Positions 185 to 36,500 of a stretch of DNA of 64,000 nt are shown here, piece after piece. Position numbers and translations under genes: made by a program. Source of the DNA: Acanthaster planci (Eukaryota); NCBI RefSeq assembly GCF_001949145.1, contig NW_019091356.1:3392934-3456933 (forward strand). Reading direction: 5' to 3'. The notes beneath the pieces were generated by a model that was given only the letters and a program-made list of their open reading frames with translations, ran no database searches and was not told where the DNA came from. The stretch's first letter is position 1, and every line of letters starts with the position of its first letter.

Positions 185-3100
185 GAAGATGAGAAGGAGG
201 TCCTTAAAGCTTTCAGTGCTGGTCGTATCATGAAACTCAATGCTCCTGAGTGGTTTTACATTCTCGTGGGCAGCATTGCAGCCGGTATCAACGGCGCTGT
301 GCAGCCCGCCTTTGCCGTGGTCTTCAGTCGGATCTTGGAGGTAAAAGCCTTTTTTTTAACCGTTGAACTCTGCGAGATACACAGATGATGGGCTAAACAA
401 AAAGTCCCATATTGACACCTACTAAGCCCCTTCTCATAGGCCTCTTACACAAGCGAATAGAGGAAATGTACCCTTCCCTAGACAATTCAGTTTAGCACCT
501 AATGACACCTTTGCACCCCAGGAATCCTATTTGGCACCCTCTGAGAATTCTCCTGTCTGGTTTTGTCTCCTAGGTCTACAGCTTGGACAAAGTTACCCAA
601 TTGGACGAGATTAACCGTCGAACCACCCTGTATTGTCTGCTCTTTGCTGGACTTGGTATTGTCACCATGGCAGCAAGTCTTGTGCAGGTGAGTTGGTAGC
701 TCGCCGTTGAGAATCATACCCACCCTTTTTAAGGTTCTTGTTCCTTATGGAACCACATTGGTCTTTGTTAATGTTCTGCGTTCTTCTCAGAATGCACATA
801 TTTCTTTCGGATGTAATCACAGGAGGTCCATGGTAGTGAGCCCTTTTTCAGAATTTCTTTGTGCTAATTCTCAGGGTGCAGCGCTTGGAAAATCAGGGGA
901 AGAACTGACGATCCGACTGCGACACATGGCATTCAAAGCGATGCTTCGACAGGTAATAACCCCCGTTATACCTCCCAGGCAAAAGTAGGAGTTTGTCTGA
1001 ATCAACTGGCTGTGGCTGACTGCAACACAGGAATCTATGGGAATGGACTATAGCTGCTAGCTAGTGGCTTCCATTGGCACGTGGTGGGTCTAGCCGTAGC
1101 CATATCATTCATGATAGCCAGTGTTCTCCATTGGTGCATGTGTTAGATCTAGCCATAGCCATAGCCGTAACACTCTTGCTAGCCAGTGGTCTCCATTGGT
1201 GCAGGTCTCAGGTCTAGCCAAAGCCATAACATTCATGGACAGCCGTCTAGTCCAAGTTCAATATCTTTAAAATCCATGCCAAAATCCACATCCATCGTGA
1301 CATTAAAAAACGTTAAAGAATACAGAGACAAGTCCAACCTCACCCACCACTTTGTCTTGGGCTCCAGCGGAGTTTTACCATTTTTGTACTTGTACGTTTT
1401 TGGGTTGCAGGAGATTGGATGGTTTGATGACAAAAAGAACAGCACCGGTGCCCTGACAACAAGACTAGCCACAGAAGCTTCTCAAGTCCAGGGGGTAAAT
1501 TCTGTCCTAAATGTTTTCACAGTGCTAAGAAACATCACCCATGATCAGCATGCCAGTATTTAAATGTTAATTCTATCTTTAATATATGTAAGTTCCCCCT
1601 CACTGACTCCCCAAGGATTGTGTTTAAACACCTTGTTCCATTGATCTGTTTCAGTGTTAAAAGAACTAGAATTCCACCTTGATTTCATTATTTATATCTT
1701 GTCGGGTACCCACCAGGCCACCGGTGCCCGTATCGGTGTCATGATGCAGTCCATCTGCAACATTGGCGTGGCCATCATCATCGCTTTCATCTATGGTTGG
1801 CAACTGACGCTGCTGGTACTGGCCTTCCTCCCTTTCATCGCCATCGCCGGCGCCATCGAGTGGCAACTGGTGCAGTCCTCGTCACAACAGGACAAGGACG
1901 CCCTGGAGATCTCGGGAAAGGTACGGAGAGGGTCACTGAGTTGCAGGCAGCAATATTGAACCTGGGCCTCTGAGAAAATGTCATATTTTGCATTGACACT
2001 GCCATTGTGTGCATGTCCTGTGCATTTATTGTAACTTGAAGAGTGCATGCGATTTGGCAAGTCACCACACCCTCATTAGTCAGAACAACACTTAGGCAGT
2101 GTTTGAATTACTTAGCTGTGGCTTGAAATTACACACAACTTTAATTATGGGGGAATTGTTTGTAGTCACAACTGTAGACTCATGCAAAGTTTCAAGCAGC
2201 AACCAAGTACTTTGGACATGTCCTTTAATGTGAGTGAACAACTTCTGTGTGAACCTGGTGCCACTGTAGTAATGGCTTGCTAATTTGTGATTAAATATTC
2301 ATGAGCCTGACTTCTGAACTGAAACAGTAAAACCTCCTGATCTGTAAAGCGCAAGCCTGATGTTTGCCTGAATTTCAACCTTCTCCTGGTACTGAGGGAG
2401 AAGGGACTTTAAATAACGGTGGCAGTGGTGGGATTTGTAGGTCAGAAACCCCCAACTTGGGCTATTTTCAGCAATGTATTAGCTGCTTCCAATGTGGCTT
2501 TGAGGTTGCATTTTTGTAAATGATTTTCAGGCATAAGCTACCTACTTTTATACTGACATTTGTATTTGCTCCAAGTTGTCAAGGTTTTTATCTTTGATAT
2601 TAGATTGCAACTGAAGCCATTGAGAACATCCGAACCGTGGCTTCGCTGACTCGGGAGGAGACGTTCTACAAGAACTACGTCAGTCTTCTGGTTGGACCCC
2701 ACAAGTAAGTCTTCATAAGGAGAGAAGCCAAATTAGTTCCAAGGCTTTGTGATCCTGGGGAGTCCCTTGGGGTTTCCCTGATACTTTTATCAGTCCGGGA
2801 TCAGAACTTTGTCAAACTACCTGTTTTAATGAATCATCCTGAGCTTTCTGGACCAAATCACTGCAGAGGATTTCTCGTTTTCGTGCTTGTTTGCCAGGAC
2901 CAACATGAAGCGGGCCCAGGCCAGCGGCCTGGCTTATGGCCTCTCCCAGGGGATCATTTTCTTTGCCTATGCTGCAGCCTTCAGGCTCGGGGGTCACCTG
3001 GTGTTGATTGGAGAAATGGAGTTCCAGAACGTGTTCCTGTAAGTGCAAAGTGCCTGAAGGAGAGTGTTTTCATTTAATGTAAGCGGTCAAGCAGTGATGT

Positions 3101-5529
3101 TGTACTCTGTCTCATATTCAAGAACTTTTTTCATGCTCATACTCAAACTGTGGGAAATGGACTCATCAAAATTACAGTGTTGCTGGACTTGTACTCATAC
3201 TTTTTCCTTGCTCGCACTCACACTCAAGCTCAGGGATACGTACTCAACTGAAATTACAGTCTTGCAGGATTCATACATTGTCCACGCTCACGCTCAAACT
3301 TGATTACAGTTCCGTCACTTTGGCACTTTGTTTCCTCTGAGTGTGCCCTGCTGTAAAGAAATGCATGCGCCTGTTGATGCATGTTGGAAAAACTGCTATG
3401 CAGGCTGTAGTTATGGGTGTGCGCTTCATTGCCCTTACTTTTGCTCTATTCTCACGTCGTTAGGGTGTTTTCTGCGATCATCTTTGGTGGCTTTGCTTTG
3501 GGTGGAGCGACCGCCCTGGCACCAGACTATTCCAAGGCCAAGTTTGCCTGTGCCAACATGTTCCGGCTCATGGATCGTGAGCCCCTCATTGATGCGTACA
3601 GCACCGAAGGAGACACTTTGGTAAGTCCAATTGATTTGAATTTGGGAGCAAAAGCGGAAAATAACAACAAAAATAAAAAATGACTTACGATCAGCCATAT
3701 TGCAAAGTTGGAGTATTGAAGGAATTTTCTGACAGTATTCATTCCCGAGGAGAGTTTGTATGCTTGTGTGTGAGATTACATCACTGATCAACCACCAAAT
3801 CATGCTCAAACTCCGGACCTTTGGGAATTCCCCAGGTATTGTCTCATTTCTGTCCTTTTTGGGGATTCAAACCGCCAGGACCACTACAACCCAGAGGTCG
3901 CGTTTGAGGACGTCCGCTTCCGATACCCAACCCGCCTAGATGTGCCCGTCCTACGCGGCCTGACCGTCTCGGTCAAGCCGGGAGAGACCCTGGCCCTGGT
4001 GGGCAGCAGCGGCTGCGGGAAGAGCACATCCATCCAGCTACTAGAGAAGTTCTACAACCCTAGGAGCGGCACAGTGGTGAGTTGAAACAAAAATTGACCA
4101 GAACCCTCCGAGATCTCTCTAAATCCATCAAGATGGTTTTATGGAGGAATCTTCGATGATTGAGGATGACAAAGCCCAAGCTGCTCTCAATTTCCATGGG
4201 GCTTGATGCTCCTGCAAAGTTTGAGCTCAGAGAAATGTTAGAAAAGTTTCCTCCGCAGTAGAGGACTTTGGGAAATTCTGGAAGAATTCCTCACAAGAAT
4301 AAACTAAAAAAAACTTTTTGCAAACTAACTCTTTTGCTTTCAAAGTGTAAAAAAACTTTCTGCATTGCAACATTTCAGACACCGAGAAAATTTCTGAAAC
4401 TCTTTTTGTATGCTTGATCCCAGCTGTTGGATGGTCATGGTCTTGACACCCTGAACCTCCAGTGGCTGCGGGCTCAGATCGGCCTGGTATCCCAGGAGCC
4501 CGTCCTCTTTGACCGGACCATCGCTGATAACATTGCCTACGGCGATAACTCCCGAGAGGTTCCCATGACGGAGGTCATCGAGGCAGCCAAGAAATCCAAC
4601 ATCCATGAGTTCATTGCCTCTCTGCCTGCTGTGAGTAGTCCTGGGAAAACAAATGTTTCTTCCAACTCTTAACTTCAGCTTTGTTGATCTAGGTTTCACC
4701 AGTTTCTGGTGAGAAGGTTTCATGTTCCCAATCGGGCCCCGTTCTCAGTTGGGATAGGTCTTTTGCCACTTAGGAAAGCCAGGCACTCCTGCACTGTTCT
4801 CACTGAGGTCAGCACACCATCCCATCCATTCAAATTGGAACAATATTCCTTGACCATATTCCTTTTACGTCCCATCTTCCATTCTTGTTTGTCAGATGTG
4901 TCCAGCCCTCTTTGTTTCCATACACAACAAACTCCGTTTCCTATTCTTGCAGGGTTATGAGACTAAAGTTGGAGAGAAAGGTACCCAGCTGTCCGGGGGC
5001 CAGAAGCAGCGTGTGGCCATTGCGAGGGCGCTGGTCCGTAATCCCAAGATCCTCCTGCTGGACGAGGCCACGTCAGCCTTGGACACTGAAAGCGAGAAGG
5101 TTCGAAAAGAAAAATTATAATCCAAAAGAATTGGCTCCAAAGAGAAAGGCAATTCAAGCTCGGAGAAGAGACCAATAATTGTAATTTTTTTTAATTAGTC
5201 AGCAGTGGCTCATGTGTTTCTAGTGTTCCATCAAAACGAATGGGTAGCTGTGCTGAAATAGCAGTTAAACTTAAATGTTAAGAATGTAATCTCAGTGAGT
5301 TATCAAGAACTTTTTCTTTTCGCTCCAGGTGGTGCAAGCCGCCTTGGACGAGGCCAAGAAGGGGCGGACCTGCATCACCATCGCCCACCGGCTCTCCACC
5401 ATCCACGACGCCGAGAAGATCGTCGTCATCCGTCACGGCAAAGTGGCTGAGATGGGTCGCCACGAGGATCTGATGCAGCTGCAGGGCCAATACCACAGCC
5501 TCTACACCAAGCAGGACCTTCAGCATTAA
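185..5529 (+). CDS. ABCB1: ABCB1/MDR (P-glycoprotein)-like ABC transporter, copy 1; 5'-truncated by the window (TMD2 + NBD2 only)
   Basis: Twelve GT-AG exons splice in frame: 185-340, 574-687, 875-952, 1411-1494, 1717-1920, 2604-2704, 2898-3038, 3464-3620, 3879-4076, 4424-4630, 4953-5099, 5329-5529 (TAA). Motifs: Walker [10 protein letters not shown]-loop VSQEP, signature LSGGQKQR, Walker B/D-loop [13 protein letters not shown]-loop IAHRLST. AATAAA at 7642-7647 suggests a 3'UTR of about 2.1 kb. Confidence 0.95.
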
Positions 5530-8500
5530 AAACTCCCGGACATCCGATGAGTGACTGCTTCAGCCTTACTTGCTCCGGCCTTCGCAGCATTTCTGGGCGG
5601 TAGATGCCTTCCATCAACTTCCTGACACTGCCAACACAAGCTTTTCCGTAAATGGAAATTTTGCCTCTTCCATAGAATTGAAGCATGTTAAAGCCCCCCA
5701 AAAAGTGTGATATTAAAATACAGAACACATGCACCATGCTCAGTTTGCTGTAAGTGATATAAAGGGAAATATTTCATGTTATGAAGTGCTCAGGTTTCAA
5801 ACTTTTCCTACTGGTGCTGTAAAAATTTTCAGTTAAGGATCTTTAGGAAAGGATTTTTGAAGCAAGATTTTTTTTTCTTTGACGAATACTGTGTCAAATC
5901 ATTGAGCAGGTTTTACTCCCAGAATTAGTGTGTTTGGAATAATACATTTTCTTTGTCTCCACTTCATCCTGAAAGTTTTAATCTGCTTTGAACATTTTTA
6001 ACTGTGAAGTACCTTGTGCCGGCTTGTTGAGTGAGTTTTTTTTTTAAATCCATGAGATTTTTGAAGGATTTTGCAGAAGGACAGTAGAGCCCTGCCAATA
6101 GCCCAACACTATTCCACATGGGATTGGTAGCCCCTTTAAATTGTTGAAGTACGAAATCTGTGCCGTCAGTTTGTTGCATAAGTTGTGACGTAAACACTAA
6201 AGAACTGAGGGTTAAACTTACCATCAAAGTTTGAAAGTCACACATGAGGAATCTGACTAAAGTGTGTGTGTGATTGGTGTATACAGATATATTTCATGAT
6301 GCATTTGCGCTTGTTCAAGTTTTGCTTTTAGTGCAGCTAGACTGAAAAGAGACATTGAGATAACCAGACCTCACCACAACTTAAAAACAAAATGTCTTGG
6401 CCTCGTTTCCACCATGCACCACCAAGGCACCGCACAACTGGCAACCTGGGTTTGTGATGTGCGTTTGAATTTCACCGGTGCCCAGCATGGAGCAGATTTT
6501 TATTTGCAGAAAACAGAGGCATACTTGGTAAGAAACATATGGAGCACTTATTTTTCTAAATCTGGACAGATGGACATCGCTTGTAGCACAAACGTCATAC
6601 AGCAGTGTCCTCATGATATCTGGCAGCCACGGGTACTTTTTATATGTACAGATATTGCTTGTAATTCATGCAGACCTCCACAATAGCATTTGTAATATAC
6701 GAGATATAGTTTTACTGCTCGTGTAAATAGCAAATGACCAAGAGATATGGCATTGCACTGTAGTGATAGTTGTATTGTGAAGTAATTTTTGCATATTGAA
6801 GAGAATGTATTTGTTAGAATTATCAAAATCACTTTAAAGTATTGCAAATCTATTTTCTTAACTTGTAATTTGGGTAAACAAAATTTTTCTGAGGTGTAAG
6901 AATGTCCGTGTGATGGAATGATTTCAACATCCATGATTTTTGAGTGCATTTCTGATGTTTCATTATCAAGAACTGTCAACAGAACAAAAGATTTTTTTTC
7001 CAAGAAGGTTGAAAATTTTGTACCATTCTATTTCTTCAAACTGGAAGAAACACAGTCGAAGTTCGGCTGTGTAGAGATCAGCCCACTGCATAATGAGAAC
7101 TCTTTTTGTTTCACTATTTTTTATTGTTATTTTTTCACTTGATAACTATTCCTGGAGGAAAACAGGCACTTGGTTGATAAAAAGAAAGTACATGTATTTA
7201 TTGCAAATTATGATTGGTGTTCATTCAGTTAGACCAGACGTGAGACATATATCATATTTTACCTTTATTTAGAGACATTTTAGTGGTGTAATACATGTGT
7301 CATATAACAACCAAAGAATTTAACGTAAATGAAAATAGAAACTCAAATCTTTTGGCAAAAGATTAAGTGAAGTCTTTCGATCCAGTAAAAACACTTATTG
7401 AGATTTTGTTTTTAATATGAAAAATGATTTTCTTTTGTTTTCACCCCCTCCCATAATTTTCTTGTCAGTTTCTTATGGTTTACATAAACTAAGGCCAGAA
7501 GCCACCCCACCCATGTGGGCTGTTAATGTAGACTTGTAGAGTAATGTAGCAATGTAAATTGCATATTGGAACCACACATATTTATTGTTTTAAATTGCAA
7601 GAGAGAATATTTTGTAAGCTTTTGATTTCTGCCGTTGATTCAATAAAAGTCTTTCGTTTTAGTTTTCTGCTTGAAAGATTTCTTTAACGTGTCGTATTCC
7701 AGTTAAGACCTGTTATTAAAAACAGACCACCGTTTTGTGCATCTTCGAGTTTTTTGCCAGGAATTTTGTTGGAAAAGAAAGAGGGCAGATTCGTCATTGT
7801 GCACCACTGAAATTGCTATCAAACATTTCGCATGACGAATTAAACTTGTCTAGCATAGGTGACCCGTCTTTTTTGAGTAAGAAAGAAAGAGAAAGAAGCG
7901 AGCTCAACTGTTGGGCTAGACATTTTCAACTTGGAATTTCACTGCCCAATCAAAGCTAGGGAAGTGCGAGTAACTATGCAAATCGGTGACTTCAAGATAC
8001 TTTCAGCCAATTGGTTTTACCTCACCAAGCATGCGTAGTGGAAAGAAGCCGTAGCACGTAGACTGGTCTGATAACTGGACGTTATGATGGACATGTACAT
8101 GTAAATTACAGTATCGATGAACGGCGTGAAACTAGGGGATATTGCATGCTCTGCGAATCTAGTTGCAAAACGCGAAAGCGAGCACTAGAAAAGGGGGTAC
8201 ATTTTCTACACGGGGTATCCAACTGATTAAGAAATTCGTAAAAACAAACTCGTATGATCAACTCGCCGCATTGCTATCAGACAACAACTGCTGCTTCCCT
8301 GAAGGCTGAAGAAAAGCGTAGGTAGACTAGGCCCCAAAACTTGACGAGCCACTTCAAACCAGACTGAATTAGGGGAACTGACTAGGCCAAGGAGCATGCA
8401 GGAAGTACAGAGCATCTACTACATGTACTAGTACATTTAGTACTCAGAACTTACGGCTCCTTATGCTGGAGTTGGAACACGGAGCTATAAAAAACGGCCT

Positions 8501-9174
8501 TCTGGCATGTGAAGTGCAAATTTAAAGTTATTCTCTGAAGACATATTATTTACTGATACATTTAGTTTATGTGACGTGTTCCAGTTGGACGCAATTTACT
8601 TTTACTGACCACCGAAGCAAATGCCAGCAAGTACTTGCAGTTCGCAGCGCTAGCGAATGGCGGAAGAGTAGAGTTGCCCGGCCGCAACGCTAGACAGCCT
8701 GGCCGGGTTGGCTGCCGCAACGCGGCGCGTGGCTTTAGGATGGGACCGCTCGCTAGGCTGGTTACACAATGCATTACTTTTGTTAGCCCCGCTAGCATGG
8801 CTATTGTGCTTACGATATTGCTTGGTTTTCCACAGCATTATCCAAGCATGCCTAGCCTGGCAATCACTTGTGGGGCCAAGGCCTATTTTGTCATGTTTGT
8901 GGGAAAAGTCATGAAATTAATACACATAACAGAATAGGCCCTAGCTAGGCCTACGGTATCTGCCAGTAGCTGTATCCCCAGTGTGATCAAGGGACAGACA
9001 TTGACAGTCTGGGATTTGGGAGGAGAGTGGTGAGGGAAGTAATTGACATGTTCATAACGTAACTTACGTCTTAATTGCAATTAATTTTGACCCTCAGTTT
9101 GAAAATTACGGCTTGAATTAAGATTTCATTTTATAAAGTACATTATTCCTGTTCCGTTTTCAGCCTGGACCACG

Positions 9175-12100
9175 ATGAGGATAATAATCTTAGCTGGCGG
9201 TTATGGAACTCGTCTTCAGAGGGATTTGCGGAACCATGATCCACAGGGGGTGTACAGACACCTTCAGGGCATGCCCAAAGCACTGCTTCCTATTGGCCAT
9301 CGGCCGCTAATATCTCATTGGATGGAGACGCTTTGGAAATGCAGAAGTCAAATAGATGAGATATATGTTGTGGTGAATTCCCTGTAATTTATGTAGGTTT
9401 TTCCTGTCGTAAATATAAAAAGAGAAATTCATTGTCTTTCTTGCTCTTTATTTTTTTCAAAACTGGAGAAAAATTCCATTTCACAAGAGATGAAAATTAG
9501 CAGTTGGAGTCAGGTTATTGGACAGCTTTCCTTTGATGCTGTGATAAAGATGTTGCGCAGAGATAAATGATTTGTTTTTGTTTATTGCGATGCCATTTTC
9601 AGTGTAACGACTTTTACTTCAAAATGTTTGAGGATTGGGCCAAAGATTGGGAAGAGGCTGTCTTGTTCAACGATGGCACCGGCACAAACGAGGTAATGTA
9701 ATGAAAACTGATCAATAACATGAACTCTATACAAACAGACTTGCTAGATAACGTCCGTAGTCCATGATGTTTTAAAGACAAATTCATTGCACTCTGCACT
9801 TCCGCGTTGTGATCTTTAATCTCCAGACCAGGCTGGGAGCTGTCGCCTGCATCTATTTGCCGGTTGACAGAATCGGTTTTGAAGACGACGTGACGGTCAT
9901 TGGAGGGTATGATTTTCTTATTCTGTAAAGGAGGCTTTTTGTAACATTTCGGATTTGGTGAAGCTTTATCTAGCCACTATATTTTTCAAATCGGCGAGTG
10001 AACAACCTGTGCTAGCGCGTTTGTCTAGCAGCTGGCGCAATGATCGTGAAGGTTTTTGTTTGTTAAAGTTAGGCTGAGCGAATTCTGTCAGATGCGTGGA
10101 AATGATCCGTGTGCTTTAATATGAAACCACTGTCTAAGCTGTATTCCACATGGCACATTTCCCACAATCATGTATTATTGCCTAGCTGCAGCCGAGCAAT
10201 TTCAACACGGCCTGAATATATGCTGGTACCCACGGCTGTCAAATGGTTGTAGTAATGGCTAGTTTCTGTGAATTGTTATTAGATGGAAATATGTTCGACC
10301 TTTGATCCAAGGTCACCACTACCAGTCATGCATTGAATGTCTGTGCATAGATGACAAAGGGAGGTAGGGCACCGGCCCATGATTTGTCATTTCATCTCGG
10401 ACATTTTGCTAGTGAGATCAGTCGTTACCTGTTCTTTTGCACTGTGCACGTAGCAACATTCTGTGGGACTTAATCAGCGGCCAATTCCATCTTCATTTGC
10501 AGGGACACGCTCTTCAAGGACGACTTTGACTTGGCGTCTGTCTGGCAGGAATTTAGACGGCGTCAGCAGCAGACCCCAGATGCTAGTCTGGTGCTGGCCT
10601 GTCCCTGCACAGATGAAGGTAGGCATGCAGTATGGATACCAGTCTGGAGAGAAGAGCCAAACAGCAAAGAGGCCATGTCTCAAATGTTGGTTTCTGTCCG
10701 TCTCTGGCTTAGATCCCTGAGTTTTGAGGCATCCAAGGCTTACAAAGCCAAGCTCAGAGAAAAATGTTCCAACTGAGAAAATGTAGGCGTCTCTGTATTC
10801 AAACCCATGTGTTGACTGTATGTATTATACTTTTTCTGTTCAGACACGGTGAAAGTGGGCATCTTGGAGACAGACGACAAAAGAGTGACCGCCTTCTTGG
10901 AGAAACCAGGACCCAGCCAAACTACTTCCAGAAAATCGGTAAGCCATTATGTGTCTAAATCATCTGGCTGTGGCTGGGAATATAGCACATGCTTTTATGG
11001 GAAGTAGCCAGAGCCGCTAGACATGTCATGTCCAGTTTGGGCCATAACATTCAGAAAGCGGCCCCAGTTCTGATTTCAAGGAGGAGATGAGACCCACAGC
11101 GCCCTCTGCCGGGGATGCACAAGGCTAATACCTCTCCGGTATACCCACTGCTATCTCATTGTCTCCATATGCACGTACATTTACATCTATTTGCATAAAA
11201 CTGTCTCAGTGCAATCATTTCTCACAATTTCCCGACAGTGCCCTTGCTTCTACGTCCTGTCCAAAGCCAGTCTGCCGCTCATCGAGCAATACTTGGAAGA
11301 AAGGAAGGTAAATTTGTTGACATATCAAGGGTGAATTTGCAGAACTGACAAAAATTTCATATGCCAGTCAAATACTAAACTGTTGATCCCTTTTGATTTA
11401 TATATATAAAATGCAATACTATTAGCTATCACACAGGTGCAAGTGGAAGGCAGAATAATGTATTGCGTCTCAGTCCCATAGACCACAATGGCCTTCGGCA
11501 TCTGTGGCCCGTATAAGGCCTCGCAGTCTACAGGACTCAGACACTAGGTTCTACGAGCACGAGCGCAATAACGAATTTATCTTCAAGCAAACTTAACGCG
11601 CAGTAAAGATTTTATAGATAAATCCGAAGAGACGCCATTCCGAGAGGCCATATACACTTACGTAGCTGTCTCAAGCTGATTGCGCACACTTCGGCAATCG
11701 ACTGCTGCCTTCTGGTCAAGGAGGAATTTCACGCGCGTGCACAGCCTGCGTGCAAACAGGATGGACCCGTAATAACGATTTCTACTTTTGGTGGTCAGAT
11801 TTGTCTACAGGGGCCAATCTATGCGAGCAAACATACTACCCATTTTGTCAACGGTTGGTTTGAGCTTATTGACCTTTTTATAAAAAATTATTTTTTTTGT
11901 CTTTTGACTATCGTTTATTCACAAATGTAAACGTATATTGAATAATCTACTCTTTTCCCTCAAGGAGGGACCAGTCGAAGGGAGGGACGCTACCGGCAAC
12001 TTTATACAGTATCTTTATCCAAGGTAAATTAATTCACTCTTGTTGAGTAAACCACCGGAGATAAAAAAAAAATCACTTTGGGTTAATTCTGGCTGGTACA

Positions 12101-12976
12101 TTCTTCACAAGAGGGGTGAATTTTTTGTGACAGATCCCCGAGGATGTCATAGTGAAACAAAATTCTCATATTAACCACAGACGAAAACAGACCAATGAAA
12201 CAAGAAAAAAAAGAAAAAGGTTTAAATCAACCCCTCCAGAAAAAGAGCAAGATTAGAACCCATGGCATATGTCACCTCAGCTTATTAATTTTAAAAATTT
12301 CCTTGCCAAACATGGCTTAACTTTGTAAATGGCTTAAATTTCCATGGGGGGGGTTAGAAATTGACAGAGTTAAGAATGACACGTGTTATGTTACACTCGT
12401 GACTGCCTGGTTCAACAGTATACTGCAGTTTTCAGGGGGGAAATCAATTATATCATGCTCTGTTACTTCTGAATTTCCAGGTGCGCTCGACCGTGGCAGT
12501 TTGCCCTCCGAATAAAGCATGTTGTGCTAAACGTTATGCTTGAAAGCACAGTGCTAGCCCGACCTTTCTCTCAACCTTCCTGCTGTTGCAAATGTGCGTA
12601 CCAGTCATGCAGAGGTTGAATTACTGCAAAAACAGCCATTTACCCGTTGGGATGGTGGTTTAGAAGCAGTGTTGGTTGAAAGCACCTACAGCTCAGGATT
12701 GAAGTAACAGTTGTCTCCGTTTGTCTGGACAGCCGCACAATGGTAAACTTTGTAGCTGAAACAGATGAGTGGACAATGGATAGATAGTTCGGATCATCTC
12801 AGGTTTGTAACTGAGAATTTGTTTCATTTGCAGTGGCCAACATCGTATGTACTTTCCTTGCAGGTTGCCCGTTTACACGTATGATATAACTGCAAGGTTT
12901 GACGTCGGCGCTCTGTCTTCCTATATATCGTGTCACCAGTACTTTCTTCGCCAGGGCAGTCTCCAGAGCAGAGACG
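9175..12976 (+). CDS. Sugar-1-phosphate nucleotidyltransferase (NDP-sugar pyrophosphorylase-like) module, about 273 aa
   Basis: N-terminal GT-A signature ILAGGYGTRL...PKALLPIG, followed by NDGT, IGGDTLF, FLEKP, CPCFY, RDATGNFI and RFDVG motifs over exons 1-8. From memory it resembles the animal family that includes the pyrophosphorylase domain of fish glucuronokinase fusions; no search was run. Confidence 0.9.
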
Positions 12977-15900
12977 GTAAGAGGCCATCAGAGTTTTCAC
13001 TGCAATTGTGGAATTCATTCTTGTGCGAAAAAATTGTGGGATCTCTATTTTTGACGTAGCCCAGGCACAATCAGTTTTCATTGTGATTGCCAAATTGTTC
13101 AATCTTGCAGCAAAAATTGTTTTCTTCTTTGTGACACAAGCAAAAAACCCCCAAACGAACCAAGAAGGCCCTAAAACATTTGAAGTCGCACACAGTCTTT
13201 TTACAATATTTACCAGGTCCAACTTTGGAACACAGTATCAGCTGTCGCAATGTCGTCTCTTTGAGTCGGTGACAGATGTAAGCAATGCTTCCCCCCCTCC
13301 CCACTTTGACATTCCCATGCTAGATAACCCATTTCAGCATCCAGCTGGCTTTCGTTTCTTTCAAGGAACATTGATCGGTGAGTCTAATGTCATCTGTGAG
13401 TGTGATGTATGACATTCAAGTTTGTGTATGTTCGTTTTTCTTCACTTCAGAAATCAAAATGTCGAAGCAACATCCAAAGGGAGAAGGGCATATGATGCAA
13501 AAGTCCAAATCTAAAAGGTAATGCTGTAAAATCAATTATTATCTTTAATTTTGTTGAATACATTTTACTATCGGTGTTTCAGTTTCCTTTGAATTTTTTG
13601 AGTTGTTTCCATGCGGAACTGATTTTAATTTCAGAGAACAACTTTGTTTTTAAATTTGGTTTGGTCAGTGGTTTAAATTGTTTTTCGGTTCTTCATTACC
13701 TTAACTTGGAAATAAGAGTGTTCCTTATAATAACATTCCACCACACTGGAAATTACCCCATCAAAAATTCCTGGTTGAGTCGTTGTTGGCGTTTGATTGT
13801 GCAGGTTACCAGCGACTTTTCTCCCTGGTTTCCATGACAAGGGGGCAGTGGAATGCATGCGGTACAACACACTTGGGAAAACAGGCCTGGAGGTTTCACT
13901 GATAGGGCTAGGTAAGTCGGCAAAGGGTCACTTGCGCCGTCCAATTTTTTGGCCAAGTGTTGCTGGTTTTTCATCAGATTCAAAGGAACAGTTTGTTTTT
14001 CTCAGTGGGCTCTTCGGGTGTAAAAGCAAGGGACCCTACCTTCACCTTGACGTGTGGTTATTCAGCATACACTGAGGAATGCTCCGAGTTCTGAGATTTT
14101 CCCTTGTCAGTGCACCGCCATCTATGATCAGTGCATAGGGCATTTACAAAACGAGTGGTTCAGGCTTGGTCTTCACAGGCTTCAGCCATTTGAGGAGACT
14201 GCAGGCTGGAACCAGTGAAGCCAAAGACTAAGCTGAAGTTCGTAAACGCCCACAGAGTCTTTAAACCGGCATCTCTTTTTTTCCTCTATGACAGGTGGAT
14301 CTCCCTTTGGTAGTGTGTTCCATCCCATGTCGCTAGAGATGGGTTCCAAGGTCGTCCGTAAGGCGCTGCAGAGCGGCATCAACTACATTGACACGTCGCC
14401 GTATTACGGCAATCGCAAATCAGAGACCATGTTGGGCAAGGTACAGAAAGGGGATGAGATCGCAGTGCTAGTAAAACAAGAGAAAAAGTGTACCGGAAAA
14501 GCAATCTGAGTACAAGGTTTATAAATGGATAAATGGCCTGTGAACATGCCCTCTCCTTGACCCGATGATTGATTTTGAGCAGATCATGTGACCTCCTGTC
14601 TCGTTGGTGTAGAACTGCTTCTTTCGCATTGTCGTCTTCACTTCATCTTTTTGATTCCCTCCCTAGATTCTGAAAGACATACCCAGGGAGGCGTACTACA
14701 TCGCCACCAAGGTCGGACGGTACAAGCCCAACGTGGAGGAGATGTTTGACTTCTCGGCCGAGAAGACGCTGAGCAGCGTGGACGAAAGCCTCCGATTGCT
14801 GGGCCTGGACTATGCAGACATCATACAGGTAAAAACTCACCGCAGAATTCCTGGGGGGGAAAAGCTGTAATTTAAAATGCACAAGAAAAAAAAAAAAGCA
14901 GAGGTAACGCTTTTGTAGAAAGCTGGTTTAGATGTGTAGTATAATTTTGCTGAGCATAGCAAAGTCTCATGAAGCAAAAATCAGGTTTACTAGGCAGAAT
15001 GCCCAGTGGTCGTGACTATTTCCCAGTAATACACAAAAATTGAAACCCGTGACTGAATTTTTTGGTTTGTTTTGGGTAGGTACATGATATCGAGTTTGCT
15101 CCAAACCTGGATGTTGTCCTTAAGGAGTGCTTACCCGCTCTGGAATGCGTCAAGAAAGCAGGAAAGGCCAGGTTCATCGGAATCACCGGCTTCCCGTTGG
15201 ACATGTACAGGTCAGGCACTGTCCACAGACTGGTTCCCTGCTGAAATGGCAAATAGAGTGTTATCTCTTGTGATGGTTTCCAGCTCATCAGCTCTGTGAA
15301 ATGTTGCACGATAGCTTACAAAAAAGATCGTGAACATTTCTCGTCATTCCAGTTGGCGAGCAGTTGTGAGCTGGTACCATTTGAAGAGCAACGAGCAGTT
15401 GAGATAATTATTCTTCTTAAAAAGAGCCGTTCTTCACAGCACTGTTGCCTACTTTTTCTTTCCTTTTTTTACGTTCTCACTTTAGAAATATCCTGGAACG
15501 TAGCACTGTGCCGATTGATGTAGCTCTTAGTTACTGCCATCTTACTTTGCATGATACGTCTCTACTGGATCTCATCCCGTATTTGAAGGTAACGTCTCCC
15601 CCCCGTAAAAAAGACAAGAAATGAATGTGAATGTTCAGCAAAAAAGCATTTGCACTTCCATGCACCCACTTGGTGTGTTGCCTGGTTTGGTTGGTGTGTA
15701 CAGCGTGATGGGTCGTCAAGGAAAGTTCAGTGGCCTGGGTTCCCTTTTTAGATCCATGATGAAAAGGGCATTTTGGCTAATAAATATCCATGAGATGTAG
15801 GTGTCATCCTTTGTTTTCTTTGGGGGGGGCAGGAGAAAGGTCTAGGTATCATCAACGCATCACCCATCAGCATGGGGCTACTCACCCACCGCGGTCCCCC

Positions 15901-16701
15901 CGACTGGCACCCGGCTCCCGCGGCTATCAAGGAGGCCTGCCGCGAGGCCGCCCTCTACTGCCAGTCACTGGGTGTCGACATCTCTAAGCTGGCCATGCAT
16001 TACACCCTGTCCCAGAATGCCACCGACCTCACCTTGGTCGGCATGGATACGGAAGAGATCGTGCGGAGCAACCTGGAAATTGCACTGGGGACGCTGACGG
16101 AACTGGAGAAGGAAACGTTAGATCATATCCTTAAAAGGTAACTCGTTCCTTGCAGCCTTGAAGAGCCAGAAATTTAACCCCTTCGCGCCATTAATTCCTT
16201 TGACCGTGACTGCTGGGCTATGTTGTGCCTGAATAGATGGCTTTGTCCATCAGCAGGTCCCATTGAACCAGCAGCTGCATGGTGAATAGACTGTATGTGT
16301 GGTATGCACAAATCCTCACACAAAACCGTGGCTCTTGCCGTCTCCCGGAGCGAAGGGGTTAAGTTAGATTAAGCTTGACAAGCCCAAATACATGTCCACA
16401 GAAAAATGGTAACTTTGTGTTTAATAGATGCTGGACTCTGGTGGAATATAATTATTCATTTTCGTGAAGTATTTCTCTGCGGTTTACAGAACTGTTGGTG
16501 TTAGATTAACAATTCGATCATCTTCCAAATGCTAATCTCCTTAACTTTCTGTAGCTGTCATAAAAAATACATTCAATTGGTAAATATGGTTCTGCCGGTT
16601 TTTCTAGGTTCTTTGAACCCCTGAAAAACAAGAGTTGGGAAGGAATTGAAGTGAAAAACTACCGTGCCAAGTTGAAAGATGTGGAGGGAGCGTGCCATTG
16701 A
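9175..16701 (+). CDS. Putative fusion protein: nucleotidyltransferase (NTP_transferase) + linker + L-galactose dehydrogenase-like aldo-keto reductase, 644 aa
   Basis: Sixteen GT-AG exons with matching phases and no internal stop: 9175-9372, 9603-9692, 9827-9906, 10503-10618, 10844-10938, 11239-11307, 11965-12023, 12864-12976, 13451-13517, 13805-13911, 14295-14440, 14667-14828, 15080-15210, 15486-15588, 15833-16137, 16608-16701 (TGA). Total 1935 nt = 645 codons. AATAAA near 17230. Confidence 0.7.
13805..16701 (+). CDS. Aldo-keto reductase module, L-galactose dehydrogenase / D-arabinose dehydrogenase-like clade
   Basis: N-terminus LPATFLPGFHD...MRYNTLGKTGLEVSLIGLGG. The complete AKR catalytic tetrad is present: D (GINYIDTS), Y (PYYG), K (IATKVG), H (IIQVHDIEF). 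Also RFIGITG, GIINASPISMGLLT, PPDWHPA and a C-terminal SWEGIEV, all typical of L-GalDH-like proteins. Confidence 0.92.
16178..16358. mobile_element. piggyBac-type non-autonomous element (MITE), 181 bp, in the last AKR intron
   Basis: Flanked by TTAA (16174-16177 and 16359-16362). TIRs CCCCTTCGCGCC and reverse-complement CCCCTTCGCTCC. Confidence 0.75.
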
Positions 16702-17300
16702 TGTATTGTGCCCAGACTTCCCGAGGCGTTTTTCCTGAGAAACAAATGGGTGAATCCTCCGGATCACTCCTCCACCATGCAGGAAACCAAGGACACATTC
16801 TACTCTTCCAGCTGGGCTCTAAATTCCTCAATCCGACAAAACTCTCCTAATGGGTCTCAAAGGCTCAGAGATGTGTAGGGTCACTTTGAATGCTTCATGT
16901 CCTTAAAATTTTGAAATCGAAGTATCAAGTTTTACAACAGTTTCTAACAATTTTACTGAAGGTATCTTTTTTTTCTTAACATTTGGGGAAAAAAATAATT
17001 CTAAGACATGTAGTGCTCTTAATTTTTCGTTTCTGTGTCTTTTGTATTGGCTATACAAAGACGAGATGAAGATTTCGGGGTAAATGTGTTCTATACCTTG
17101 TTATTGGCTTTAGGATGTTCTTCCATAATGGTTCTAAATTTCTTTATTGGGTTGATTGGGTGATGTTCTGTAGTTATTTTCTCTGATCAAGTGCAAACTC
17201 TTTTGTGGTGTGACAGTTTAAAAGAGTGAAATAAAAGGAACTTTTCAAAATAAAAAAGGGATTCTCGTAAAGGGAGCTGATTGAATGAACACCATGGAAG

Positions 17301-17554
17301 CAGAGTTGCTGACTCGACTTGTGACTTGACTTGGACAAAATGACTTGTTACCAACCCATCAGATGCTACTCGACCGGCCCCATATAGTTTTATAACTCAT
17401 AACCTTGTAAATTGACGCCTGGTTCTTTTTGCTTATTACTGCTGGACAAAATAATGTGCAGCTTGACTTGTACTTGGATAAAGAGACTTGTGACTGGACC
17501 GAATGACTTGTGACTTGACTTGGACTTGCAAAATATGACTTGCTGCCACCTCTG
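17301..17554. mobile_element. hAT-type MITE, 254 bp, with perfect 8-bp TSD
   Basis: CATGGAAG duplicated at 17293-17300 and 17555-17562. Termini CAGAGTTG / CACCTCTG. Subterminal GACTTG arrays at both ends. Confidence 0.85.
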
Positions 17555-30581: not shown

Positions 30582-33500
30582 ATGGCTATCGATGATGAAG
30601 ACCCCACCCCAAATGGTGCCATCAATGGCCACGGTGAAGATGAAAAGGGCTTTATAGAAATGCAGGATAAAGGTATTTTTTTAAGGTACTTTGTTAAGGT
30701 TACAATAATTTTATTTTTTCGAGGTGTAAATTGCAATGGACGTGTTTTTGCAATGTTTTTATTATGTGTGTATTGTAATGGTCATTGGTTAGGTTTTGAC
30801 GGTTATCTTTTTATGTGTAAACTGTAATGGTGATTGTTGTCAAATATTTCTATGATTTGGTATTAATTTATTATTATCATTAAATCCTGTAAGACAGTTT
30901 TTAACTGCAAAAATGGATAAAAATTAACCAATATAATAATAATAATAAATTTTGTTTAGAAATCTCCATTTGACATCAGATAACTATGTATATATATTCT
31001 TGGCCATATTCTGTCTTTTTTGGGCAGTAACTTACCTAGCTGTGATATCCATTACATTATCCATTACATCCCCTTCGTGATTGTGGAATGACCTTATCTG
31101 TTGTTACGTTTGGTGGCCAGGCCTTCCTCAGCCAGAATATGGCGGAGTGCCCACAGCCGGTGACCAGAATGAAAATGAGGTCGATGATGCCGATGTTGCT
31201 AAGGAGATAGAAATTAAGATGAAGGATGCGGAAGACGGAGACGGAGAGACTGAGGGAAAGGAGGAGGAGGAGGTTGAAGTGAAGACCAGACAAGTCAGTA
31301 CGCTTCAGCTGGTGAGTGGCAAAGCTCGGTCTAGCCCCCTGTAGCATTTCATGTAACCGGCTGCAGACGGCGCCGCAGTTAAACAGAAGCATATAGACGG
31401 AGTTGTGACACGAAGTCATGTATGGCATAGTGTGCGATGCCATTTTGTGGCCAAAATGATTGGGTCTTGTGCATTGTATTGTAGTAAAAACTAATTGAAT
31501 TGGAAAAATGGCCGGGGTGCATTTACATTGCTTATTGCTCTGCTAATAATTAATGTACACATACCGTTGAAAGTAAAATGGCTTCTAATCTGAAGTTGTC
31601 ACAACTGTCTTTGTGAACAGCTCTGTTACCTCCCTTTAAAACGTCGGGAACATTGCAAATTCCCCAGCTTTTCTTGATATTCTCTGCTGTTTTTCTTTAT
31701 TTTACTTGAGTAATCCGCCCCCCCTCCATTTTTTTGTAGTTCCGATTTGCTGGTCCCTTTGAGGTCTTTCTCATCATCCTCGCCACCATCTTGGCTTTTA
31801 GCCAAGGCATATCGCTCCCCATGGTGCTATTCTTCTTTGGTCGGGTGACGGACGCGTTCATTGATTTTGGCCGAGAGTACATGAACTTGAACGACACTGA
31901 ACAAATGGAGTGAGTTATGTCGTGTTTTCTTTTCTTATGCAGTATTCCTCATTTGAAATTACTCTGTTTGGCTTAAATAGATCTAGTTTCACTCCCTCAG
32001 ACAGGAAAGGGGGGGGTTTAATGAAAGGAAAGGGGTGATTGCGCCGTTACATCATTGGAGCTGTTTTTGCACTAACCCCAAACTCCAAATGGCACTATGT
32101 ACATATAGCTGTAGCACTAGACTGGATTATATACACACCTCCCAGTTATATTTGCCACTAGACTGGATTATGTACACACCTCCCAGTTATATTTGCCACT
32201 AGACTGGATTATATACACACCTCCTGGTTATATTTGTCACTAGACTGGATTATATACACACCTCCCAGTTATATTTGCCACTAGACTGGATTATATACAC
32301 ACCTCCCGGTTATATTTGCCACTAGACTGGATTATATACACACCCCCCCGTTATATTTGCCACTAGACTGGATTCTGTATAGCCCCTTATAATATTTGGC
32401 ACTAGACTAGATTATATACACCTCCCAATATTTGGCACTAGACTGGATTCTGTACACCTCCCAGTTATATTTGGCACTAGACTGGATTCCATACACCTAT
32501 CAGTGTGGACAGGTTGCTGTTACTGCTCAAAAAAGGTTGATACCATATACTGCAGTTGCCGGGTGGTCATTTCCCTGACACGCATTTTCCCACTTTTGTC
32601 TGTTGAATATCCGAGTACCGAGGAGCAGCACGAGCCAGGTCGGCAAAGTCCCATCATAAAGTCAACTGTTCCTCCCGTGCAACTTTTGCAAGCACTGCTT
32701 GTAGCACAGGGGTCGACAAAAGACAAAACCCCAATATGTTAAATCATTCTTCCCTCCTCTTGCTCCCCTCCCCCCGCCATGGTAGCTGCCCGCCTATCAG
32801 CGTCGACATCATCATCGACTTCTCTGGCTACTATGCCATCTTAGGCGGCATCATCATGGTCGTAGCCTACCTGAACAACATGCTGTGGAACATGGCGGCA
32901 GAGCGTCAGATCCACCAGATCCGTCTCCGGTTCTACCGGGCCATCGTCCGTCAGGAGATCGCCTGGTTTGACACCCACAAAGCGGGCGAGCTCACCAACC
33001 GGTTGGCAGAGTACGTCTTACTGCAACAATTAAACAGTTTTCAAAAAATGTGCTGTTCCTCCTTCGTTGAATTTTTTTACAATGACAATTTTGAGAGAGA
33101 TTTCACATTTCTCGAAGCTTTCCTCAGGAGACATTCAACACTGCACAATATTGGAAACTGCAAATTCAATTTTGTCTTAAATGGCACAAACTGAACTGGT
33201 TTTCTTATTAACGCTGAATGTGAAGGGAGTTTTGACAGAAATGTTGAGACCAACAGCTTCTAAAGAAATCGACTGCTGAAGAACAGGGAGTTGGAGGTGC
33301 TCTTTTAAAAACTCAGTCTTTGGCTCTCCAACTCACTGGAGCCAGTCAAACTATTAAAACATGTTGGGTACCTTAGTATTTACATCAAAAATCAGAAGTC
33401 CACATCTCGTTTTGGATCTAAAACCTTTTGTCAGGTGAGCTGTCATGTGAGCAAATATTTTTTGGATGCTCGTCTCGTTTCCCCAGAGACATAGACAAAA

Positions 33501-36500
33501 TCCGGAAGGGGTTTGGAGACAACCTGGGCCTTCTCCTGCAGTACTTGGGTACCTGCATCGGAGGCATCGCCCTAGGGTTCACCAAATCCTGGAAGCTGAC
33601 CCTCGTTATTCTGGCCGTCGCCATAATCATCATGGTGCCTTCCATCACTCTGGGTGTCAGAGTATGTAGATGGTCTTTTTTCTTGTTTTCCTCTATTGCT
33701 CTGAATCCGTCAATTTCAGTATAAGTTTTCACATCTTCACTGTTATAGTTTTTGCCTGAGAATGTCTCTCGGGGTACGCATTCTCTAAAACATCCCTAAA
33801 AACTCCCAACCTGTCTCATGCAGTTTGCAGTAAAAAAAGGAGGGTAGTTACATCAAAAACTTTAGGCTTGCCAGATTTAACATTAGAAACCAGTTTAAAG
33901 CCAGGAGAAAATAGCCCTTTCATTGGCCCTGCTTTGGTTTGCCGTGTCAGTATACTTTTTCATGTAAGCACAAGAAACGGGTATGCACTTTCTTTTTTCA
34001 AAAGAGTTAAGTTCTTTGTTTTTCTTAAGTAGATAGTTGTTTGTAGATTGGAATCTCCAGTCGTTTTGTTCTCCAGTTTATGTCTGGACATGGAATATTT
34101 CTAACAGTTCAGTGTTTACGATTTTTTTAAAATAAATTTTTTGCAGCTGATTCGAAAGATGGCCCAGAATGCTTTAAATACGTACGCCAAGGCGGGGGCC
34201 ATCGCTGAAGAGATACTTTCCTCCATCAGGACGGTGGCTGCATTTGGAGGAGAAAAAAAGAGTCTGGAAAGGTAAAAAGAAAAAAGTTGAACTACACGTT
34301 GAAAAGTAACAGAATAGCCTGGACAAGAATGGAAAACTGAGACAAATTGAAAAGTTGCAAGCTTCTGAAAGGGTTGAAGAACTTTGTCAAGAAATAAAAA
34401 TCTGTTAAAAATGTTTATTATTTTTTAAGAGAACCCACAGTCTCCGATCAGAACAAAAAAGTTTTGGAAATACTGGAAGAACCGTAAAGAAAAAGCAAAT
34501 TTTAAAGAATTCAGTCTCTGAAAGGACAAGAAATATCTTCCTGAGATCGGGAGGCTGTGACCTTATGAATTTAAAACAATTCAAAAAATGGTTCTTTCAG
34601 CAGTAATCGGAAACAGTTTGAAAAAGTAAACAAAGCTTAAGGTTTTGGAAAAACCAAATGATAGCAGTGAGTAAGCACCCATAATCTGAACTGAAAGAAA
34701 TACCTGAGTGCCCTGAAATTAATGGAGAAGGTAATCCATGATAGAATTGACATGGAACCAAGTGGGAAAAACAAAGAGAAAAAAAAAGAAACAAGAGCAT
34801 AAAAGTCACTGGATTAACAAGAGACAAAAAATTTGTCAGCCTCTGCTCCACTCTGTGCACTCAGTGAAAAATGACCGCTAAGTTCCTGGGGTATCAATCA
34901 GAGACCGTTTGACTTAACGAAATCGTGTCTGGACAAAATCATTTGCAGATACACAGAAAAACTCAACGGAGCCAAGAAGCAGTCTATTAAGAAGGACACA
35001 TTGCAGGCGGGCTTGGTTGGCGTCTTCTTCTTCAATTTCTATGCGACATACGCTCTAGCTTTCTGGTATGTCACCTCTACATGATATAATGTGTCCCTAA
35101 CCGTGTTTGATATCCACATGGAACCACTCTTGAAACCTTTTTCTGCTGAGTTCCAATAGAATGTCTTTACTTGTGACGATTTCCTTTCTGTAAATAATCA
35201 GTTATATTGAACTGTTTTCTGGACAGGTATGGATCAACGCTTTTCATCAACGAAGGACTTCCTGCCGGGGACATCATTGTGGTATGTGTGAAATAGACCT
35301 GCCAGCCTGAGAGATATCATTGCAGCGTGTGTGGAATAGACTCGTTTGCACGTGTCATTGAATATTGCCACTGACGCTTGGCGTTTGTTTCTCTTGTCTG
35401 TAGTGCTTCTTAGGGATTCTGTTTGGGGCCTTCTCACTGGGTCAGGGGACCCCCTACATCACCGACTTCATCACTGCCAGGGGTGCGGCGAGCACCATCT
35501 GGGAAATTATCGATCAGGTATGCCAAAAACCTTGAACCATTTTCCACTGGAGAAGAGAACAGAATGTTACCCAACCCTTAAATCCAACATGATGAACACA
35601 ATACAAACATGCTAAAGCCCCCCGCATGACAAAACTGTCAGATGTAGGAGAAAAACCACCAAAATCAAATAATTCTAAAAACATATCTCAAATTGTTCAA
35701 AGTTTCTTAAGGAAAAGTATATTCTCTCAATGCATTATACTTTCCATTATATATCAGCTATATATACAATCCTCCAGAGTATATTCCCCTTGACTATATC
35801 ACCCAGTTGGAGATATTACCATGTTAGGATGCCTGTTGATGCTCCTTCTTAAGGCTGTGTCGCCACACTATCGCCCTACTCTCATATGTTGCCCTGCATT
35901 ACTTCCCCTTTTGAATATTTTCCCTCTTGAAGGTACCGGATATTGACAATGCCTCTGATCTGGGTCTGAAACCAGACACACTGACTGGGGACATCACATT
36001 TAAGAATGTGCACTTCTGCTACCCCTCGAGACCGGACACTCGGGTAGGACTGCATTTCAAGTCGTTTTACTAAAGCTCTGTAATTGTTGTAACGCAGTAT
36101 TTTAATTTTGTGAAACTCTCTTGAATTCACAAAAACTCCAGTGAACTAAGGGCACATTTTTGAGACTAGTCTGTAAACGGCTGTAAACCTGTCCAAATCC
36201 TTTAATTACTTAGTGTGGGTTTCCATGGAGTCAAGGAGCATTGAGCATGGAAGTGAAAAGATGTCCGAGTGGTTAATTTTGTGTTGTTTTTCCGCCGGGG
36301 GCAGGTGCTGAATGGCTTGAACCTGGAGGTCAAACGGGGCCAAACAGTGGCCTTGGTAGGCAGCAGCGGGTGCGGCAAGAGCACCACTGTGCAACTCATC
36401 CAACGATTCTATGACCCGTTGTCTGGATGTGTAAGTCTTGTCTAAAAATCCATCATGCGCCCTCTCCCTCCCCCCAAAATTCCACGGTACCCTTCCTTGA

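What the first reader, a model, noticed from the sequence alone, without database searches (positions are those of the whole stretch)
9175..16701. In-frame fusion of an NDP-sugar pyrophosphorylase-like nucleotidyltransferase to an L-galactose-dehydrogenase-type AKR: a candidate bifunctional sugar-metabolism enzyme in an animal
Seen in the sequence: nucleotidyltransferase exon 8 (12864-12976) has no stop before a strong donor (ACG|GTAAGA, phase 1). A 67-nt exon (TTCAG|13451-13517|GTAATG, phase 1 to 2) encodes a Lys-rich linker EIKMSKQHPKGEGHMMQKSKSK. The AKR then begins at a phase-2 acceptor (13805) with no Met ahead of its conserved LPATF...GFHD N-terminus in that exon. All 16 exons give one 644-aa ORF. 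Both modules keep their catalytic signatures (GGYGTRL/PK and D-Y-K-H), and the 474 nt between the modules has no evident polyA site or promoter. Established knowledge: NTP_transferase enzymes interconvert sugar-1-P and NDP-sugar; related animal domains are fused to glucuronokinase in fish; plant L-galactose dehydrogenase and yeast Ara2 oxidise L-galactose or D-arabinose to the lactone precursors of ascorbate and erythroascorbate; in the plant Smirnoff-Wheeler pathway a GDP-mannose pyrophosphorylase acts upstream of L-GalDH. Inference: the fusion may functionally link nucleotide-sugar activation or turnover (L-galactose, L-fucose, D-arabinose or uronate) to lactone/ascorbate-like synthesis or rare-sugar salvage. 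I know of no described protein with this architecture, but I could not search.
Basis: partly seen in the sequence, partly recalled or inferred. Interest (0 to 1): 0.88.

Follow-up and report, generated by a model that had tools for sequence, protein, structure and literature searches.

The report
Sea star fused sugar-enzyme gene
In sea stars, two sugar-metabolism genes that are separate in other animals are spliced into one protein-coding gene, which likely makes two independent enzymes on a flexible tether, and the crown-of-thorns copy also has an internal first exon whose transcripts would encode the second enzyme alone.

Summary
The fusion is real. The 16 exons give a 644-aa protein identical to the Acanthaster planci RefSeq model XP_022086075.1. 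The bridging junction 12976>13451 has 44 reads in 7 of 7 raw RNA-seq runs from 3 studies, and intron 8 is essentially uncovered. The same fusion is annotated in Patiria miniata, Asterias rubens and A. amurensis. Other echinoderms examined have two separate genes, on one chromosome in five species. Each half groups as one sea-star clade, so it likely arose once. An internal first exon in intron 7 (about 12650-12742/12802) yields AKR-only mRNA in some samples. The nucleotidyltransferase belongs to the zgc:136439 clade, a paralog of fish GKUP. Both active sites are intact by sequence. Direct channelling is unlikely because nucleotidyltransferase products have a blocked C1 and the dehydrogenase needs a free aldose. 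No substrate is known for either half in animals. Verdict: a genuine lineage-specific fusion, already in databases as 'uncharacterized' and not found described in the papers searched. Moderate interest; the ascorbate link is unsupported.

The parts
8254..9164 (+). Main promoter and alternative 5' exons. The N-terminal extensions of RefSeq isoforms X1 and X2 map at 8254 and 8463 (X3 possibly at 8621, a 3-residue match), with an acceptor just before the ATG.
   Evidence: low RNA depth 8420-9187 and contig 8492-9372
9175..12976 (+). Exons 1-8 (9175-9372, 9603-9692, 9827-9906, 10503-10618, 10844-10938, 11239-11307, 11965-12023, 12864-12976): sugar-1-phosphate nucleotidyltransferase domain, zgc:136439 clade, aa 1-273
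12650..12802 (+). Internal first exon in intron 7 (start approximate). Donor after 12742 splices to exon 8; donor after 12802 splices directly to exon 9. It would give an AKR-only protein of 368 or 356-357 aa.
   Evidence: joint 12742>12864 has 0/10/2/6 reads in X14/X18/X20/X19, and 5 X19 reads leave at 12802 into the start of exon 9; ORFs
12977..13450 (+). Intron 8, the fusion intron (474 nt, GT-AG). Read-through would stop at 13057 but is not seen.
   Evidence: 44 junction reads in 7 of 7 raw runs; depth at most 1 inside
13451..13517 (+). Exon 9: linker, poorly conserved and predicted disordered; holds Met277, Met288 and Met289
13805..16701 (+). Exons 10-16 (13805-13911, 14295-14440, 14667-14828, 15080-15210, 15486-15588, 15833-16137, 16608-16701): L-galactose-dehydrogenase-like aldo-keto reductase, aa 297-644
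16702..17254 (+). 3' UTR with AATAAA at 17230 and 17249; one contig runs on to 17446

Best explanation
The locus is one spliced gene encoding a 644-aa nucleotidyltransferase-AKR fusion that is also annotated in three other sea stars, and it likely arose once in the sea-star stem from two genes on the same chromosome, with the halves likely working as two independent enzymes on a flexible tether. Shown: the fused splice path, the internal first exon that gives AKR-only mRNA, intact active-site residues and the sea-star distribution. Inferred: the N-terminal half is most likely a UTP-dependent sugar-1-phosphate uridylyltransferase for sugar salvage. The C-terminal half is most likely an NAD+-dependent aldose 1-dehydrogenase of the L-galactose/L-fucose/D-arabinose type that makes aldonolactones for sugar breakdown. 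The likely origin is a new splice donor at the end of the NT coding region joined to the AKR's ATG-bearing exon. In A. planci the NT would be made only as the fusion, while the AKR would also be made alone in some tissues or individuals.
For: Fused mRNA: exon 7>8 has 34 reads and exon 8>9 has 44 reads over 7 runs. Exon 8 has no other exit and intron 8 is empty. Run X14 has zero depth on the internal exon yet 4 reads across 8>9. Distribution: 3 of the 120 listed hits carry PF00483+PF00248, all sea stars, plus A. rubens. None of the 25 other long NT relatives has an AKR. Single origin: fused NTs form a clade (96/92) next to Amphiura, and fused AKRs form a clade (100/99). Linkage: the separate genes share a contig length in A. 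japonicus, S. purpuratus, D. setosum, L. variegatus and L. pictus. Both halves are conserved (Acanthaster vs Asterias amurensis: NT 174/267, AKR 231/339) while the linker is not (2/30 vs Patiria, 9/32 vs Asterias; pLDDT under 50 at 275-320). UDP-sugar lead: one same-clade NT is fused to GalE, the sister clade is fused to GHMP kinases (8 of 30 scanned), and the best sequence hits are GalU-type. AKR: top hits are L-GalDHs (E 1e-93), and the tetrad, S59/Y61/R93/D128/Y185 and the lack of Arg279 described in PMC9381564 are all matched in A. planci.
Against: No long read or single molecule spans exon 1 to exon 16, so full-length fusion is chained from short-read junctions, and part of the 8>9 reads come from the internal exon. 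No protein-level evidence. Retention in two sea-star orders could reflect selection for coupling rather than indifference. The nucleotide is not fixed by structure: RmlA, GalU and GMPPA/B lie within 1.5 Z. The GalE fusion is one unnamed record. Adjacency of the ancestral genes is not shown (accession numbers lie 72-597 apart in four species). The brittle-star outgroup rests on one gene model. Substrate-site residues vary (S59 to A in the three other sea stars, Y61 to W in Asterias), so the AKR substrate may differ from L-galactose.
Confidence: 0.6

Rival explanations
1. The fusion is selected because both halves handle the same rare sugar at a branch point (activation to a nucleotide sugar versus oxidation to the lactone), or because one half regulates the other, possibly for sea-star glycans or saponin sugars.
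For: Kept with both active sites intact in 4 of 4 sea stars found. This NT family fuses repeatedly to sugar enzymes: GalE and GHMP kinases. No NT-only transcript was seen. That sea-star saponins carry unusual sugars is recalled, not from a call.
Against: The reactions are not consecutive; a kinase or phosphatase must lie between a C1-blocked sugar and a free aldose (established chemistry). The linker is not conserved. The same NT clade also appears fused to DJ-1 and ThiF-like domains. The halves are often not found together in other animals. Neighbours are ABC transporters, not sugar genes. A search on asterosaponin sugars gave nothing relevant.
Confidence: 0.27
2. Two separate overlapping genes with occasional read-through splicing; the 644-aa protein is a minor or absent product.
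For: An internal first exon exists (18 reads on 12742>12864 plus 5 on 12802>13451). Exon 9 has its own ATGs that give 356-368 aa, close to the 352-359 aa of 11 stand-alone homologues. The 9>10 junction has more reads than 7>8 (71 vs 34).
Against: No NT-only 3' end: exon 8 always splices to exon 9 and intron 8 is empty. The frame is kept in four species. The Patiria linker has no Met.
Confidence: 0.07
3. A plant-like (Smirnoff-Wheeler) ascorbate module: GDP-sugar pyrophosphorylase plus L-galactose dehydrogenase.
For: The AKR is about 48-49% identical to plant L-GalDH structures, and GMPPA/B is tied among the NT fold matches.
Against: The NT scores far below every NCBIfam cut-off and is only weakly like GMPPB (E 3e-8). 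Three enzymes lie between these steps in plants. VTC2 is restricted to Viridiplantae and animal L-GalDH-like genes occur in auxotrophs (PMC4396506). C. elegans has an L-GalDH homologue, but no evidence was found that it uses the plant route (PMC4357563, passages).
Confidence: 0.06

Closest known systems
Zebrafish GKUP, glucuronokinase/putative UDP-glucuronate pyrophosphorylase (PMC3938481)
   Same: N-terminal nucleotidyltransferase of the same wider family fused to a sugar enzyme; similar size (619 aa).
   Different: The partner is a GHMP kinase, which is the preceding step. Its NT domain lies outside the clade of the sea-star domain (99/97); Carassius GKUP is 34% identical to the brittle-star NT against about 50% for zgc:136439. 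Its pyrophosphorylase activity was barely detectable.
zgc:136439-like stand-alone nucleotidyltransferases (fish, amphibians, sharks, amphioxus, echinoderms, sponges, choanoflagellates, early fungi)
   Same: Orthologous clade; same motifs and the same insertion after GTRL.
   Different: Stand-alone proteins of about 270 aa; no functional study was found.
Plant and bacterial L-galactose dehydrogenase (7EZI, 7SMI/7SVQ, 8SCC, 9W6Y, 7LH6)
   Same: AKR barrel, tetrad, substrate-pocket residues and no Arg279.
   Different: Stand-alone; the plant enzyme is a monomer in ascorbate synthesis. Animal homologues were described only by similarity in the papers seen.
Bacterial GalU and RmlA
   Same: Same fold (Z 25-26.5, rmsd 2.4-2.6 A over about 235 residues for 4ECM and 3JUJ) with aligned GxGTR, K, EKP and DxG motifs.
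   Different: About 20% identity; substrate not transferable.

Membership tests
NTP_transferase (PF00483) sugar-1-phosphate nucleotidyltransferases | Profile score above the curated cut-off | tested here: met
   68.2 bits vs 21.2, aa 4-262
NTP_transferase (PF00483) sugar-1-phosphate nucleotidyltransferases | GxGTR..K, GD, EKP and DxG motifs | tested here: met
   R13, K35, E181, K182 and D249 are in 4 of 4 sea stars and 63 of 63 other rows; D124 in 62 of 63; aligned to GalU and RmlA. Their catalytic roles are recalled.
NTP_transferase (PF00483) sugar-1-phosphate nucleotidyltransferases | GT-A-like pyrophosphorylase fold | tested here: met
   pLDDT 91-98 per block over aa 1-260; Z 26.5, rmsd 2.6, 235 aligned to 4ECM
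NTP_transferase (PF00483) sugar-1-phosphate nucleotidyltransferases | Enzyme activity, nucleotide and sugar used | not testable with these tools
   RmlA, GalU and GMPP folds are nearly tied
GKUP (glucuronokinase-pyrophosphorylase fusion) | GHMP kinase domain in the same chain | tested here: not met
   P0005 has only AKR and NTP_transferase families
GKUP (glucuronokinase-pyrophosphorylase fusion) | NT domain inside the kinase-fused group | tested here: not met
   8 kinase-fused rows are split from 16 rows that include the sea stars and zgc:136439; Chromosphaera has both types
GDP-mannose pyrophosphorylase (VTC1/GMPPB) | Orthology and C-terminal left-handed beta-helix (feature recalled) | tested here: not met
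   The domain ends near aa 270 and is followed by the linker; GMPPB hit only E 3e-8
L-galactose dehydrogenase-type AKR | Catalytic tetrad D57/Y62/K90/H127 (spinach numbering, PMC9381564) | tested here: met
   D364, Y369, K395, H436 in 4 of 4 sea stars
L-galactose dehydrogenase-type AKR | Pocket residues S59, Y61, R93, D128, Y185 | tested here: met
   All five in A. planci; S59 is A in the other three sea stars and Y61 is W in both Asterias
L-galactose dehydrogenase-type AKR | No Arg279 (NAD+ preference) | tested here: met
   I588 in A. planci, I or V in the others; G at 273
L-galactose dehydrogenase-type AKR | Oxidises L-galactose | not testable with these tools
   Needs an assay
Channelling bifunctional enzymes | Domains in contact and catalysing consecutive steps | not tested
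   Domain contact is open; by established chemistry the steps are not consecutive

The most novel reading that the evidence does not exclude
Sea stars evolved a two-mode locus in which a previously unassigned, catalytically intact UDP-sugar pyrophosphorylase is always tied to an aldose dehydrogenase while the dehydrogenase is also made free; the pair partitions one rare sugar between activation and breakdown, and the fusion points to the substrate of the whole zgc:136439 family, the likely active partner that fish GKUP lacks.
Probability: 0.2. Interest if true: 0.7.

Novelty: new variant of a known kind. Interest (0 to 1): 0.42.

Why it matters
It is a datable case of gene fusion in an animal, with separate same-chromosome genes in relatives and a surviving or regained internal first exon. 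It also joins two animal enzyme families for which no assigned substrate was found in the papers searched, so one recombinant protein tests both. If the halves share a sugar, it would reveal an undescribed salvage route. If not, it is a neat but ordinary lineage-specific fusion.

Tried and rejected
No whole genome is held for this window, so paralogues, GKUP and GULO in A. planci were not checked. A mixed NT+AKR alignment (A2) misaligned the AKR rows and was dropped. The full-length model had only 4 rows for the AKR half (pTM 0.49), so it says nothing on domain packing; no complex prediction is available and contact stays open. Accession spacing could not show gene adjacency. D. antillarum (fragmented assembly) and Branchiostoma gave different contig lengths for the two genes. 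CpG content did not mark the internal promoter. Pfam on 139 of the longest open frames found no sugar gene near the locus (short exons can be missed). The ESM Atlas added only NTP_transferase clusters. Earlier-findings look-ups were empty. Paper searches found no description of the fusion. Supplements were not searched and may list the locus. No indexed run was on record as RNA; the evidence comes from laid raw reads.
Full report
Observation. Joining the 16 exons gives 1935 nt with GT-AG at every intron and one frame of 644 aa. A search with exon 1 returned a 100% match named Acanthaster planci LOC110976781. Its cluster holds five isoforms of 571-669 aa, all fused, and isoform X4 equals my model. 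Pfam finds NTP_transferase at aa 4-262 and Aldo_ket_red at aa 329-611.

Transcript test. I laid 7 of the 9 raw RNA-seq runs offered (3 studies) and one contig set. The fusion junction 12976>13451 had 10, 7, 5, 4, 7, 5 and 6 reads, 44 in all. Exon 7>8 had 34 and exon 9>10 had 71. Depth inside intron 8 was 0 in five runs, 0.22 in X16 and at most 1 in X20. No NT-only 3' end was seen, although read-through would stop at 13057. Only about a fifth of each run was read, and reads are 150 nt, so no single molecule spans the gene.

New feature. One search shows an exon inside intron 7. Coverage starts near 12650 with no upstream joint listed. It splices from 12742 to exon 8 (0, 10, 2 and 6 reads in X14, X18, X20, X19), and 5 reads in X19 leave at 12802 straight into exon 9. 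In these forms the first long frame begins at Met277 (368 aa) or Met288/289 (357/356 aa), after short upstream ORFs. Eleven stand-alone animal homologues are 352-359 aa. None of the five RefSeq proteins in the cluster is AKR-only. Some 8>9 reads therefore come from this internal start. X14 has no depth on the internal exon and still has 4 reads across 8>9, and transcripts that join exon 7 to 8 have no exit except exon 9. I conclude that both a fused and an AKR-only mRNA are made. That the exon is a true start site is inferred from the lack of an upstream joint.

Distribution. With the Patiria protein as query, 3 of the 120 listed hits (of 244, from 7998 candidates) carry both domains, all sea stars; Asterias rubens is a fourth. 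Crinoid, urchin, sea cucumber, hemichordate, amphioxus, cnidarian, mollusc and arthropod AKRs stand alone. NT relatives stand alone in a brittle star, urchins, a sea cucumber, fish, amphibians, sharks, a sponge, a choanoflagellate and early fungi (that search covered only 149-475 aa). The profile-free scan of 1.84 billion representatives listed the best 150 of 2202 hits. Of its 26 rows of 345 aa or more, one is the Patiria fusion; the other 25 were scanned and none has an AKR. In trees of 22 chosen rows each, the fused NTs (96/92) and the fused AKRs (100/99) each form a clade, and the NTs sit next to Amphiura at 88/85. The separate genes share a contig length in A. japonicus, S. purpuratus, D. 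setosum, L. variegatus and L. pictus, but not in the fragmented D. antillarum assembly or in Branchiostoma. These species are related, so this is one inherited state, and adjacency is not shown. The neighbours in the window are ABC transporter genes on both sides.

The NT half. It keeps R13, K35, D124, E181, K182 and D249, which align with GalU and RmlA motifs, and its model matches RmlA, GalU and GMPP folds at Z 25-26.5. It belongs to the zgc:136439 clade. Eight kinase-fused domains, including Carassius GKUP, lie outside this clade (the longest row is of unsure place). Gangl et al. (PMC3938481; abstract, sections 21, 25, 26 read) found glucuronokinase activity but only trace UDP-glucuronate formation for zebrafish GKUP. 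One same-clade NT is fused to GalE (439 bits vs cut-off 262; single unnamed record), which points to UDP-sugars. Others are joined to DJ-1 and ThiF-like domains, which weakens any single fusion as a guide to function.

The AKR half. The five best solved matches are L-galactose dehydrogenases (E 1e-93 to 1e-72). The tetrad, the pocket residues and the missing Arg279 named in PMC9381564 (passages read) are matched in A. planci. S59 and Y61 vary in other sea stars and most animals. Wheeler et al. (PMC4396506, passages) report such genes in metazoan ascorbate auxotrophs and suggest other roles. PMC4357563 (passages) lists a C. elegans homologue at 37% but found no evidence for the plant or animal route. 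PMC9602106 (passages) added nothing on echinoderms.

Mechanism. The linker is the least conserved part (2/30 identical to Patiria, 9/32 to Asterias) and is predicted disordered. A pyrophosphorylase interconverts sugar-1-phosphate and nucleotide sugar, both blocked at C1, while the dehydrogenase needs a free aldose, so the two cannot hand over a product directly (established chemistry). I therefore favour two independent enzymes on a tether (0.6), formed by a new donor at the end of the NT coding region splicing to the AKR's ATG exon. Coupling around a shared sugar is the main rival (0.27). Whether the domains touch is untested. The fused mRNA itself I put at about 0.93.

Novelty. The architecture is in RefSeq and UniRef as uncharacterized. 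Searches for the locus and accession ids, for the concept and for the NT family found no description in the open library; subscription papers and supplements were not covered. Enzyme fusions in nucleotide-sugar metabolism are a known kind (GKUP read here; GAL10 appears), so this is a new variant. Interest 0.42.

Noticed in passing
P0392 (Carassius GKUP), NT domain: It lacks the Arg of the GxGTR motif and the Asp of the DxG motif, both present in 63 of 63 rows of the zgc:136439-like alignment. This could explain the near-zero pyrophosphorylase activity reported for zebrafish GKUP and makes zgc:136439 a candidate for the active enzyme. One fish sequence only; Chromosphaera GKUP also lacks the Asp.
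   Followed up: partly
P0282, P0266, P0295 (database proteins): Independent fusions of this NT family to GalE, DJ-1/PfpI and a ThiF/E1-like domain (three Entophlyctis records).
   Followed up: partly
window 12740, 12776, 13494: Read alleles remove two upstream ATGs of the internal exon (A>G, A>C) and Met288 (G>C). Reads running on past the 12742 donor all carry the 12740 G, which hints at allele-dependent donor choice.
   Followed up: no
window 1183-7575 and 32607-49466, + strand: Two ABC transporter genes (ABC_membrane plus ABC_tran, P-glycoprotein-like by recalled motifs) flank the locus; the downstream one has both halves.
   Followed up: no
window 54445-54888, - strand: Protein kinase exon (PF00069, E 5e-9).
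   Followed up: no
window 11560-11680, 16190-16330, 17480-17550: Intronic and 3' repeats that attract many reads from other loci; the last is a short tandem array.
   Followed up: no
P0250, P0256, P0131/P0251: S. purpuratus and L. variegatus each have two near-identical AKR records on one chromosome, and S. purpuratus has two NT records.
   Followed up: no
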